Assembly (NCBI GenBank): GCA_001819335.1
Contig: MHMH01000006.1
Location: 1 to 60,591 of the forward strand
Length of the DNA: 60,591 nucleotides
Direction of reading: 5' to 3'
DNA from: Candidatus Nealsonbacteria bacterium RIFCSPLOWO2_01_FULL_43_32
GTDB lineage: Bacteria > Patescibacteriota > Minisyncoccia > Minisyncoccales > MHMH01
A model generated the notes under the pieces. The model had not been told where the DNA came from, ran no database searches, and saw nothing but the letters and a program-made list of their open reading frames with translations. Positions 35,537 to 35,580 of this stretch are shown in pieces (position 1 is the stretch's first letter; every line of letters starts with the position of its first letter). The translations under genes and the position numbers were made by a program.

Positions 35537-35580
35537 TACCTCCCGAGGGTGTTTAGGTATCTAAACACCCTCGGGAGGTA
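35537..35580 (-). promoter_or_regulatory. Perfect 20-bp SD-sequestering hairpin upstream of gyrB
   Basis: TACCTCCCGAGGGTGTTTAG (35537-56) and CTAAACACCCTCGGGAGGTA (35561-80) with a 4-nt loop. GGAGG lies 10 nt before the ATG. Confidence 0.8.

What the first reader, a model, noticed from the sequence alone, without database searches (positions are those of the whole stretch)
35537..35580. Perfect 20-bp hairpin whose 3' arm is the gyrB Shine-Dalgarno (best copy of a 3-member family)
Between the pheS stop and the gyrB ATG lies TACCTCCCGAGGGTGTTTAG-GTAT-CTAAACACCCTCGGGAGGTA. In mRNA sense, the 3' arm contains GGGAGG 10 nt before the ATG and the 5' arm is an anti-SD mimic (ACCTCC). No U-tract follows, so it is not a plain terminator. 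The core ACCTCCCGAGGGT/ACCCTCGGGAGGT recurs before nusB (11768..11805) and rpsK (55173..55206), always at the same distance from the start codon. Possible roles: translational gating (an RNA thermometer or helicase-dependent switch), a processing site for RNase III (rnc is encoded in this window; 20 bp is substrate length), or a mobile REP-like cassette that delivers an RBS.
Basis: partly seen in the sequence, partly recalled or inferred. Interest (0 to 1): 0.75.

Follow-up and report, generated by a model that had tools for sequence, protein, structure and literature searches.

The report
Mobile palindrome inserted before gyrB
The perfect hairpin in front of gyrB is a small mobile palindromic DNA element (a REPIN-like pair of inverted repeats tied to a tyrosine-transposase gene family) that dropped into a once-tiny gap between two genes of a groundwater Patescibacteria genome, and its ribosome-binding-site look comes from the element's own sequence.

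Summary
A perfect 20-bp inverted repeat lies between a PheS-like gene and gyrB, with two shorter copies before nusB and rpsK.

It is not a site-specific regulator. Each copy is an inverted doublet of a 23-nt imperfect palindrome, U = TAAACACC-TCCCGAG-GGTGTTTA.

- **Spread:** exact U copies, single or doubled, occur in several other Patescibacteria (Nealsonbacteria-like) contigs. They sit in both orientations, often far from any start codon, once in-frame inside ligA.
- **Insertion:** relatives have empty sites. The rpsM-rpsK gap is 5-6 nt and the pheS-gyrB gap 9 nt, neither with a Shine-Dalgarno (SD) sequence. One strain lacks the nusB 3' arm; another carries two uncompensated mismatches in the gyrB hairpin.
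- **Transposase link:** in a related contig a 241-aa gene is flanked by U. It has HUH and Tyr motifs, and its model best matches the E. coli REP-associated transposase (4ER8). Orthologues elsewhere are flanked by hairpins with covarying stems and an invariant CCCGA loop. Two of these hairpin types lack GGAGG.

Best reading: a REP/REPIN-RAYT-like system, apparently undescribed in this phylum. The SD/anti-SD look is incidental. Effects on mRNA are untested.

The parts
35533..35584 (-). REPIN-like doublet in the pheS-like to gyrB gap. Full unit U lies at 35562-35584 (TAAATACCTCCCGAGGGTGTTTA, mRNA sense). The inverted unit U' lies at 35533-35555. The perfect 20-bp stem is 35537-35556 / 35561-35580.
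   Evidence: Insertion status comes from the empty 9-nt gap in L053 and from the same doublet carrying 2 mismatches in L051.
11763..11810 (-). REPIN-like doublet in the rpmF to nusB gap. An exact unit U lies at 11788-11810. The inverted arm is 11768-11785 (17-18 bp stem).
   Evidence: Strain variant L003 lacks the 17 nt ACCCTCGGGAGGTAAGT, which is the 3' arm.
55166..55211 (-). REPIN-like doublet in the rpsM to rpsK gap. Unit U lies at 55189-55211. A truncated inverted arm lies at 55173-55185 (14-bp stem).
   Evidence: Empty 5-6-nt junctions in L047, L048 and L049.
31257..35528 (-). gyrB, with two inteins. It is the gene downstream of the main hairpin.
   Evidence: Relatives encode an intein-free GyrB of 644-645 aa.
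35593..36735 (-). Single-chain PheS-like tRNA ligase gene. It lies upstream of the hairpin, and its TGA stop is 12 nt from the stem.
11320..11757 (-). nusB, downstream of doublet 2.
54709..55164 (-). rpsK (151-aa form), downstream of doublet 3.
43481..44191 (-). Y1 (HUH) transposase-like gene, a paralogue (27% identity) of the U-associated gene. Its own hairpin, CGGGG-TYCGA-CCCCG, occurs at 43459-43477, 44203-44221 and inside the gene at 43991-44009.
   Evidence: The gene is absent from the same holB-frr gap in L053.
16287..16985 (-). Second Y1 transposase-like paralogue. Its own hairpin (GGGAG-TCGGA-CTYCC in gene sense) occurs at 16289-16307 and 17014-17032.
49891..50640 (-). Third Y1 transposase-like paralogue. 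Its own hairpin, GATGGATA-TCCGA-TATCCATC, occurs at 49862-49882, 50608-50628 and inside the gene at 50422-50442.

Best explanation
The hairpin is a REPIN-like element: two copies of a 23-nt imperfect palindrome (U = TAAACACC-TCCCGAG-GGTGTTTA) in inverted orientation, 2-8 nt apart. It was inserted into what used to be a 5-9-nt gap between two co-transcribed genes.

The unit belongs to a Patescibacteria-wide family of DNA hairpins with an 8-10-bp covarying stem and an invariant CCCGA loop. These hairpins flank, and co-diverge with, a family of about 240-aa HUH/Tyr (Y1) transposase-like genes. The closest solved structure to these proteins is the E. coli REP-associated tyrosine transposase.

Inferred mechanism, by analogy with RAYT and IS200/IS605 enzymes. 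The protein recognises the folded hairpin in single-stranded DNA, mainly through the loop bases and the stem shape. It then cuts and rejoins DNA so that doublets are copied into new TA-rich spots, often at or just after stop codons. Doublets later decay to single units or mismatched hairpins.

The GGGAGG / CCTCC pair in the arms follows from this particular stem-plus-loop sequence and is not an RBS evolved for gyrB, nusB or rpsK. On the mRNA the doublet must fold into a very stable hairpin, which keeps the upstream stop and the downstream start physically close. That probably explains why such insertions are tolerated in essential operons whose genes were already expressed without an SD. Any effect on mRNA stability, processing or translation is secondary and untested.

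Shown: the anatomy, the family, the insertion polymorphism, the transposase-like fold and the hairpin-gene association. Inferred: the transposition chemistry, the tolerance argument, and that the window's genome itself carries the U-flanked gene.
For: 1. Unit and doublet anatomy.
2. Exact 23-nt units in independent contigs with GC 29-45%, as single units in both orientations and as doublets.
3. Empty sites. rpsM-rpsK is TAA+5-6 nt+ATG in relatives whose RpsK is 77-89% identical, against 51 nt in the window. pheS-gyrB is TAA+9 nt+ATG in L053.
4. Polymorphism and decay. L003 lacks the 17-nt 3' arm while encoding an identical NusB. L051 is 99.3% identical overall yet has 2 substitutions in the 44-nt hairpin, both giving G.A mismatches.
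5. L010/L037 ORF (P0001, 241 aa). Two U variants lie upstream and an inverted exact U overlaps its stop codon.
6. The protein. H15, H92xH94 and Y152..N157-P158 are invariant in 31 sequences. Nineteen of 31 hit Pfam Y1_Tnp, best 4.6e-11. The AlphaFold model has pLDDT 92. The top PDB fold match is 4ER8, the RAYT bound to a REP hairpin (E 7e-6), followed by the ISDra2 and IS608 TnpA structures. The window paralogues hit NCBIfam REP_Tyr_transpos at E 1e-8 to 4e-11.
7. Orthologues in four other genomes are each flanked by their own hairpin: GTGAC-TCCCGAA-GTTAC, TTACC-TCCCGAA-GGTAA, TGAAC-ACCCGAG-GTTCA and CCAAC-ACCCGAG-GTTGG. Across these, 90.7% of cells are paired, 4 of 9 pairs change on both sides, and the covariation score is 0.463 against 0.156 in shuffles (0 of 500 reach it); slid controls reach at most 0.149.
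8. In L034 the hairpin type that flanks its own gene also forms two dispersed inverted doublets.
9. P0001 sits in the same ClpB-protease-...-LTD-protein neighbourhood in all 10 places returned. Orthologues keep the LTD-protein neighbour.
10. A hairpin of the window's paralogue-1 type occurs on the P0001 contig (L037:13941-13965). The P0026 contig L025 comes from the same sample as the window's source contig.
Against: - The U-flanked transposase-like gene was found on related contigs and not inside the 60-kb window. The three paralogues in the window carry other hairpins. That the window's genome has the U-type gene is therefore inferred.
- The genome-wide copy number is unknown. Three doublets in 60 kb is modest.
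- The GTAG or CGTC tetranucleotide that tags most described REPs is absent.
- P0001 scores far below the curated RAYT cut-off (12 bits against 80; the paralogues score 33-43).
- No transposition intermediate or target-site rule was seen.
- Four of the eight U doublet sites do place GGAGG 9-11 nt before a start codon, so some selection for that arrangement cannot be excluded.
Confidence: 0.8

Rival explanations
1. Co-opted translation module. Whatever its origin, the doublet now acts as the RBS of gyrB, nusB and rpsK. The SD is locked in the hairpin and is exposed only when a ribosome finishing the upstream gene, or a helicase, opens the 5' arm. This would couple or gate downstream translation.
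For: GGAGG lies 9-11 nt before the ATG in all three window copies and in L022 rplB-rpsS. The stop codon is only 8-12 nt from the stem. Three of the six SD-like sites in the window are these doublets.
Against: - The spacing is longer than at the window's two clear native SD sites (7-8 nt).
- Other doublets are 16 nt, 52 nt or further from a start, or lie inside a gene.
- Ancestral junctions and relatives have no SD.
- Strain L003 lacks the SD arm.
- The L051 changes are uncompensated.
- Sister hairpin types have no GGAGG.
- A ribosome stopped 8-12 nt upstream would open little of a 14-20-bp stem (inference).
Confidence: 0.12
2. RNA processing or stability element. The transcribed doublet is cut by RNase III, which is encoded at 10578-11264, or it blocks 3'-5' exonucleases. 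Either way the levels of the upstream and downstream cistrons would be uncoupled. This is a consequence of the insertion and is compatible with the main explanation.
For: A 20-bp perfect duplex with very stable folds; rnc is present. From my own knowledge: E. coli REPs stabilise upstream mRNA, and Neisseria Correia elements are RNase III substrates.
Against: Copies 2 and 3 have stems of only 17-18 and 14 bp. No RNA data exist. The same element sits at sites where processing would have no obvious use, such as inside ligA or next to a terminator.
Confidence: 0.2
3. Non-autonomous derivative of an active IS200/IS605-type insertion sequence (a PATE/MITE-like element), as opposed to the partner of a domesticated, single-locus RAYT.
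For: The window's own Y1 paralogues vary in position between relatives. Paralogue 1 is absent from the holB-frr gap in L053, and L052 has Y1 genes at other sites. Several paralogues occur per genome.
Against: The U-associated gene P0001 is at one fixed, syntenic locus in every contig returned, and its orthologues keep a neighbour. No near-identical duplicate copies were seen. The best structural and NCBIfam matches are to RAYT, ahead of IS200.
Confidence: 0.15
4. RNA thermometer, or an intrinsic terminator or attenuator between the two genes.
For: SD sequestration resembles a thermometer. The first unit alone (8-9 bp followed by UUUA) looks weakly terminator-like. Rfam hsp17 thermometer gave a chance-level hit at E 4.1.
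Against: The stems are perfect and GC-rich, at -31 to -45 kcal/mol. From my own knowledge, thermometers use weak, mismatched stems. No Rfam family reaches threshold. There is no U-tract on the mRNA strand. The downstream genes are essential and have no obvious promoter of their own in the gap.
Confidence: 0.03

Closest known systems
REP / REPIN elements with REP-associated tyrosine transposases (RAYT, TnpA-REP) of E. coli and Pseudomonas (PMC3116915, PMC3479197, PMC5581495)
   Same: Short imperfect palindromes in gaps between genes. Inverted doublets that fold into hairpins, plus decayed single units. Each hairpin type flanks its own HUH/Tyr Y1 transposase-like gene. That gene sits at a fixed, syntenic locus, and several gene-hairpin pairs occur per genome. 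The best fold match is 4ER8.
   Different: No GTAG or CGTC tag at the hairpin foot. An invariant CCCGA pentaloop with a covarying stem instead. Very compact doublets (40-52 nt; spacer 2-8 nt, against 71-110 nt units in P. fluorescens). The protein is about 240 aa, about 15% identical to E. coli RAYT and below the curated RAYT score. The host is a small-genome Patescibacteria lineage. Copy number is unknown.
IS200/IS605 insertion sequences and their non-autonomous derivatives
   Same: Y1 HUH transposase fold. Recognition of sub-terminal hairpins in single-stranded DNA. Hairpins on both sides of the gene.
   Different: The U-associated gene looks single-locus and vertically inherited. The dispersed copies are bare hairpin doublets without a gene. 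No target tetranucleotide was identified.
Neisseria Correia elements and enterobacterial ERIC/IRU repeats (my own knowledge)
   Same: Small palindromic insertions inside operons that are transcribed into long hairpins. They can bring in expression signals or RNase sites by accident.
   Different: Those elements are 100-150 bp with terminal inverted repeats and a target duplication, and are not linked to a Y1 transposase.
SD-sequestering regulators: ROSE and fourU thermometers, and coupling hairpins such as rpmI-rplT or MS2 coat-replicase (my own knowledge)
   Same: An SD-like GGAGG is base-paired to a CCUCC stretch just upstream of a start codon, close to the previous stop codon.
   Different: The stems are perfect and far too stable. 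The same sequence occurs at sites with no start codon. It is absent from orthologous junctions, and a natural strain does without it.

Membership tests
REP/REPIN | Short (about 20-40 nt) imperfect palindrome repeated in the genome | tested here: met
   The 23-nt unit has an 8-9-bp stem and a 5-7-nt loop. There are 4 hits in the window against 0 expected and exact copies in 9 loci.
REP/REPIN | Units arranged as inverted doublets that fold into a hairpin | tested here: met
   Three doublets in the window. Further doublets in L011, L013, L022 (two) and L025. The L034-type hairpin also forms doublets.
REP/REPIN | Many dispersed, mostly extragenic copies per genome (over-representation) | tested here: inconclusive
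   Only about 60 kb of the window plus about 60 kb of likely same-population contigs could be read, giving roughly one doublet per 20-25 kb. One copy lies inside ligA. No whole genome was available; the genome-contig scan found only 2 unrelated-looking hits.
REP/REPIN | The same repeat flanks a RAYT gene | tested here: met
   P0001 in L010/L037 has U variants upstream and an inverted U at its stop codon. Four orthologues have their own types. Caveat: this gene is not inside the window.
REP/REPIN | Conserved GTAG (or CGTC) tetranucleotide at the hairpin foot (PMC3479197, PMC3733652) | tested here: not met
   The unit ends are an invariant TA...TA. There is no GTAG or CGTC in or beside any type.
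REP/REPIN | Insertion or excision polymorphism between strains or relatives | tested here: met
   Empty rpsM-rpsK and pheS-gyrB junctions. Arm deletion in L003.
RAYT (REP-associated tyrosine transposase) | HUH motif plus catalytic Tyr on a Y1 transposase fold | tested here: met
   Invariant HxH and Y..NP. Pfam Y1_Tnp in 19 of 31 members. Foldseek top hit is 4ER8, followed by IS200/IS605 TnpA structures.
RAYT (REP-associated tyrosine transposase) | Score above the curated NCBIfam NF047646 cut-off (80 bits) | tested here: not met
   P0001 scores 12 bits; the window paralogues score 33-43 bits. These are distant relatives only.
RAYT (REP-associated tyrosine transposase) | Single copy at a conserved locus, vertically inherited and not IS-like (PMC5581495) | tested here: inconclusive
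   P0001 has the same neighbours in 10 places and its orthologues share a neighbour. However, the window's paralogue 1 is missing from the same gap in L053, and no complete genomes were available.
RNA thermometer (ROSE/fourU type) | SD held in a weak, mismatch-containing stem that melts in the physiological range | tested here: not met
   A perfect 20-bp stem at -45 kcal/mol. No Rfam match at threshold.
Intrinsic terminator | GC-rich hairpin followed by a U-tract on the transcribed strand | tested here: not met
   On the mRNA strand the stem is followed by AAGUAAAUUAUG. Only the antisense strand is flagged.
RNase III substrate | About two helical turns of duplex RNA that is cleaved in vivo | not testable with these tools
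   The length criterion is met only by the gyrB copy (20 bp). No RNA-end data are available.

The most novel reading that the evidence does not exclude
In these SD-poor, ultra-small Patescibacteria genomes, REPIN-like doublets that happen to carry an SD paired to an anti-SD copy have been domesticated. They would serve as portable intercistronic modules: inserted between tightly coupled essential genes, they keep stop and start close through the hairpin and release a strong SD only when the upstream gene is translated. A selfish replicator would thereby rewire translational coupling in ribosomal and replication operons.
Probability: 0.1. Interest if true: 0.75.

Novelty: new member of a known kind. 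Interest (0 to 1): 0.45.

Why it matters
REP/REPIN-RAYT systems have been described mainly in Proteobacteria and a few other phyla. My literature searches found none reported for Patescibacteria.

Here a large, mostly unannotated protein family can be tied to a conserved DNA hairpin with a clear recognition signature: an invariant CCCGA loop on a covarying stem. The family gave 232 hits, nearly all unnamed or labelled 'hypothetical protein'. That supplies an annotation for the genes, a search rule for the repeats, and a case of a persistent intragenomic replicator living inside essential operons of very small genomes.

It also gives a practical warning. A strong SD-plus-anti-SD hairpin before a gene can be a by-product of a mobile palindrome and need not be a regulator.

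Tried and rejected
- **Rfam:** the gathering-threshold scan of the window and a permissive scan of the hairpin returned only tRNAs and chance miRNA-type hairpin hits.
- **Genome contigs:** scanning for the 18-mer gave one Saccharibacteria intergenic hit and one coding-region hit. The source genome did not appear.
- **High-GC metagenome hits:** L009, L012, L014, L015, L017 and L021 look like chance coding matches and were set aside.
- **P0001 on its own:** Pfam gave only E 0.1 and PDB sequence search gave nothing. The family alignment, per-member scan and structure prediction were needed.
- **Extending the window with L022:** no nucleotide overlap, and L022 does not reach rpsM/rpsK.
- **Other hairpin types in the window:** none of the P0026, L028, L031 or L034 types was found.
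- **Terminator reading:** rejected for lack of a U-tract on the mRNA strand.
- **Thermometer reading:** rejected on stability.
- **Target-site duplication or common target motif:** none could be defined beyond TA-rich gaps and frequent overlap with TAA stop codons.
- **SD or leaderless usage in Patescibacteria:** the literature search returned nothing.

Full report

Yes. Window 35537-35556 and 35561-35580 form a 20-nt, 100% complementary inverted repeat around a 4-nt loop. All relevant genes are on the minus strand.
- gyrB at 31257-35528 (1423 aa, because it carries two inteins)
- a single-chain PheS-like ligase at 35593-36735
- nusB at 11320-11757, after rpmF at 11814-12158
- rpsK at 54709-55164, after rpsM at 55216-55605
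- RNase III at 10578-11264

In mRNA sense the 3' arm carries GGGAGG, with 10, 11 and 9 nt between GGAGG and the ATG in the three copies. The core 12-mer occurs exactly six times, as three inverted pairs. The 23-mer unit with up to three mismatches gives four hits where shuffles give none. As RNA the three regions fold at -45.1, -36.4 and -31.3 kcal/mol, far beyond shuffled controls.

One refinement matters. The perfect stems are as close to the upstream stop codon (8-12 nt) as to the downstream start (8-10 nt). The element nearly fills each gap.

**2. The anatomy is richer than one hairpin.**

Read in mRNA sense, each copy starts with a 23-nt unit that is itself an imperfect palindrome: U = TAAA(C/T)ACC-TCCCGAG-GGTGTTTA. 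A 2-8-nt spacer follows, and then a more or less complete inverted copy (U'). The 20-bp stem is therefore two small palindromes facing each other.

No Rfam family matches. The only hits are tRNAs and chance-level miRNA-type hairpin hits.

**3. The family outside the window.**

The window's nusB is found in several groundwater metagenome assemblies. One strain variant (L003, 98.9% identical over 1.6 kb) encodes an identical NusB. It lacks exactly the 17 nt ACCCTCGGGAGGTAAGT, which is the SD-bearing 3' arm, and keeps a lone U.

A metagenome scan for the 18-mer found further contigs. Setting aside high-GC chance hits, they show the following.
- **Single units:** exact 23-nt U occurs alone in contigs with GC 29-45% (L010, L018, L019 twice, L023). 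These copies lie in both orientations relative to the flanking genes. Twice the element's own TAA serves as the upstream stop codon (L010, L016).
- **Doublets:** they occur between rplW-rplB and rplB-rpsS (L022), after an ECF sigma gene 52 nt before the next start (L011), before a canonical terminator (L013), and in-frame inside ligA, where they encode PPEGATPSGG (L025, also L026).
- **SD spacing:** GGAGG is 11 nt from the ATG at rplB-rpsS but 16 nt at rplW-rplB.

**4. The doublets are insertions.**

Relatives with 77-89% identical RpsK have an rpsM-rpsK junction of TAA + 5-6 nt + ATG. They have no hairpin and no SD, against 51 nt in the window.

The pheS-gyrB neighbourhood is conserved in relatives.
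- L053 (88% identical PheS) has TAA + 9 nt + ATG.
- L051 (99.3% nucleotide identity over 3.8 kb) has the same doublet with two substitutions. Each creates a G.A mismatch and neither is compensated. That is 2 changes in 44 nt, against 26 in 3771 nt overall.
- L052 (91%) carries a different palindromic doublet (AGAAGC-TTA-GCTTCT, twice) at the same junction.

These gaps therefore tolerate palindromic insertions, and the downstream genes were, and in relatives still are, expressed without an SD. In the window itself only 6 of 57 predicted genes have an SD-like 5-mer at -18 to -5, and three of those six are the doublets.

**5. Link to a transposase-like gene.**

In L010 (the same locus as L037-L046) a 241-aa ORF is preceded by two U variants. 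It is followed by an inverted exact U that overlaps its stop codon. Sources call this protein hypothetical, from a Candidatus Nealsonbacteria genome.

On its own the ORF barely touches Pfam Y1_Tnp (E 0.1), but the family evidence is clear.
- Thirty-one aligned members share an invariant N-terminal His, an HxH (HUH) motif and a Tyr...Asn-Pro motif.
- Nineteen of 31 members hit Y1_Tnp, best 4.6e-11.
- An AlphaFold model (pLDDT 92) has as its best PDB match 4ER8, the E. coli REP-associated tyrosine transposase bound to a REP hairpin (E 7e-6). The ISDra2 and IS608 transposases follow.

The window encodes three paralogues (26-30% identity in the alignment) at 43481-44191, 16287-16985 and 49891-50640. 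They hit the NCBIfam RAYT model at E 4e-11 to 4e-8. This is better than their hit to the IS200 model, but below the curated cut-off.

**6. Hairpin and gene co-vary.**

Orthologues of P0001 in four other genomes are each flanked by their own hairpin:
- TTAAGTGAC-TCCCGAA-GTTACTTAA (L025)
- TTAATTACC-TCCCGAA-GGTAATTAA (L028)
- TGAAC-ACCCGAG-GTTCA (L031)
- TTTAACCAAC-ACCCGAG-GTTGGTTAAA (L034)

The downstream copy is usually inverted. Aligning 12 units shows an invariant CCCGA loop and TA...TA ends. For the stem, 90.7% of cells are paired and 4 of 9 pairs change on both sides. The covariation score is 0.463, against 0.156 in shuffles (0 of 500 reach it) and at most 0.149 in slid controls.

In L034 the type that flanks its gene also forms two dispersed inverted doublets. 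The L025 type occurs as single units on three other contigs. The window's three paralogues have their own hairpins with a TCCGA loop at both ends, and two also carry a copy inside the gene.

The L031 and L034 types contain no GGAGG. The SD-like motif is therefore a property of the U stem-plus-loop sequence and is not shared across the family.

**7. What it most likely is and does.**

The pattern matches published REP/REPIN-RAYT systems (PMC3116915, PMC3479197, PMC5581495):
- small imperfect palindromes
- inverted doublets and decayed single units
- empty sites in relatives
- one hairpin type per Y1 transposase-like gene
- that gene held at a fixed, syntenic locus

By analogy, the protein would recognise the folded hairpin in single-stranded DNA and copy doublets to new sites. 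Here the sites appear to be TA-rich gaps at or just after stop codons.

On the mRNA the doublet must fold. I infer that the hairpin keeps stop and start a few nucleotides apart in space, which would make such insertions tolerable in tightly coupled essential operons. Stabilisation of the upstream message or RNase III cutting are plausible side effects but are untested.

**8. What remains uncertain.**

- The U-flanked gene lies on related contigs and not in the window. Three indirect links exist. The U sequences are identical. A hairpin of the window's paralogue-1 type occurs on the P0001 contig (L037:13941-13965). The second paralogue's contig comes from the same sample as the window's source contig.
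- The genome-wide copy number is unknown.
- The GTAG or CGTC tag typical of described REPs is absent.
- The proteins are only distant relatives of curated RAYTs.
- The window's own paralogues may behave more like insertion sequences. Paralogue 1 is missing from the same gap in L053.
- Four of the eight U doublet sites place GGAGG 9-11 nt before a start, so some co-option cannot be excluded.

**9. Novelty and verdict.**

Searches of the held literature found no report of REP/REPIN or RAYT systems in Patescibacteria or the candidate phyla radiation.

I file the finding as a new member of a known kind: a REPIN-like element with a distinctive CCCGA-loop hairpin and a distant RAYT-like protein family in a small-genome phylum. 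The regulatory options are not supported.

Interest is moderate. The system is useful for annotation and for students of intragenomic replicators, but it is not a new regulatory mechanism.

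Noticed in passing
window 31257-35528 (-): gyrB encodes 1423 aa with two intein insertions (N- and C-terminal splicing motifs, each found twice). Close relatives with the same pheS-gyrB neighbourhood (L052, L053) encode an intein-free GyrB of 644-645 aa.
   Followed up: partly
window 43991-44009 and 50422-50442: Two of the three Y1 transposase-like paralogues carry a copy of their own flanking hairpin inside their coding sequence, at the same variable region of the protein. 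In paralogue 3 the hairpin encodes RISIN. This could be self-targeting or autoregulation.
   Followed up: partly
window 43481-44191 (-) versus L053:2370-2401: The paralogue-1 transposase-like gene sits with its hairpins between holB and frr in the window. In the syntenic relative L053 that gap is only 30 nt, so this gene is itself an insertion.
   Followed up: partly
L025:14016-14060 (also L026): A U doublet lies in-frame inside the NAD-dependent DNA ligase gene. It adds PPEGATPSGG in the segment between the IPLRL and LIEVRGEV motifs of the translated gene.
   Followed up: partly
L052:11150-11190 and L052:1809-1850: A different palindromic doublet family (AGAAGC-TTA-GCTTCT in inverted pairs) occupies the pheS-gyrB junction, and another gene junction, in a 91%-PheS relative. 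The same gap has been colonised independently.
   Followed up: partly
window-wide (57 predicted genes): SD-like motifs are rare: 6 of 57 genes, 3 of them element-borne. Eight genes have a TANAAT/TATANT box within 20 nt of the ATG, hinting at leaderless or SD-independent initiation in this organism.
   Followed up: partly
window 9232-9309, 11267-11340, 12648-12729, 54006-54087, 55759-55782: A second repeat family of ATTCG-rich overlapping palindromes (for example GAATATTCGTATCATTCGGATA) lies just upstream of several genes: an MS-channel gene, rnc, the gene at 53209-53994, and the region upstream of rpsM. These may be promoter-associated or regulator-binding sites.
   Followed up: no
L010:8987-8989, L016:1446-1448, L037:5350-5352: The first three bases (TAA) of the palindromic unit serve as the stop codon of the upstream gene at three independent sites. 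This suggests insertion at or next to TAA stops.
   Followed up: no
window 35593-36735 (-): The phenylalanine ligase is a 380-aa single-chain form with a PheS core plus an FDX-ACB domain, scoring below cut-off for the mitochondrial-type PheRS and SrmL models. It is highly conserved (80-98% identity) across many Patescibacteria contigs.
   Followed up: no
window 54709-55164 (-): The database copy of this window's RpsK is a 131-aa call (P0123). Homologues at 151 aa align over the full length, so the longer start, directly after the doublet, is the likely true one.
   Followed up: partly
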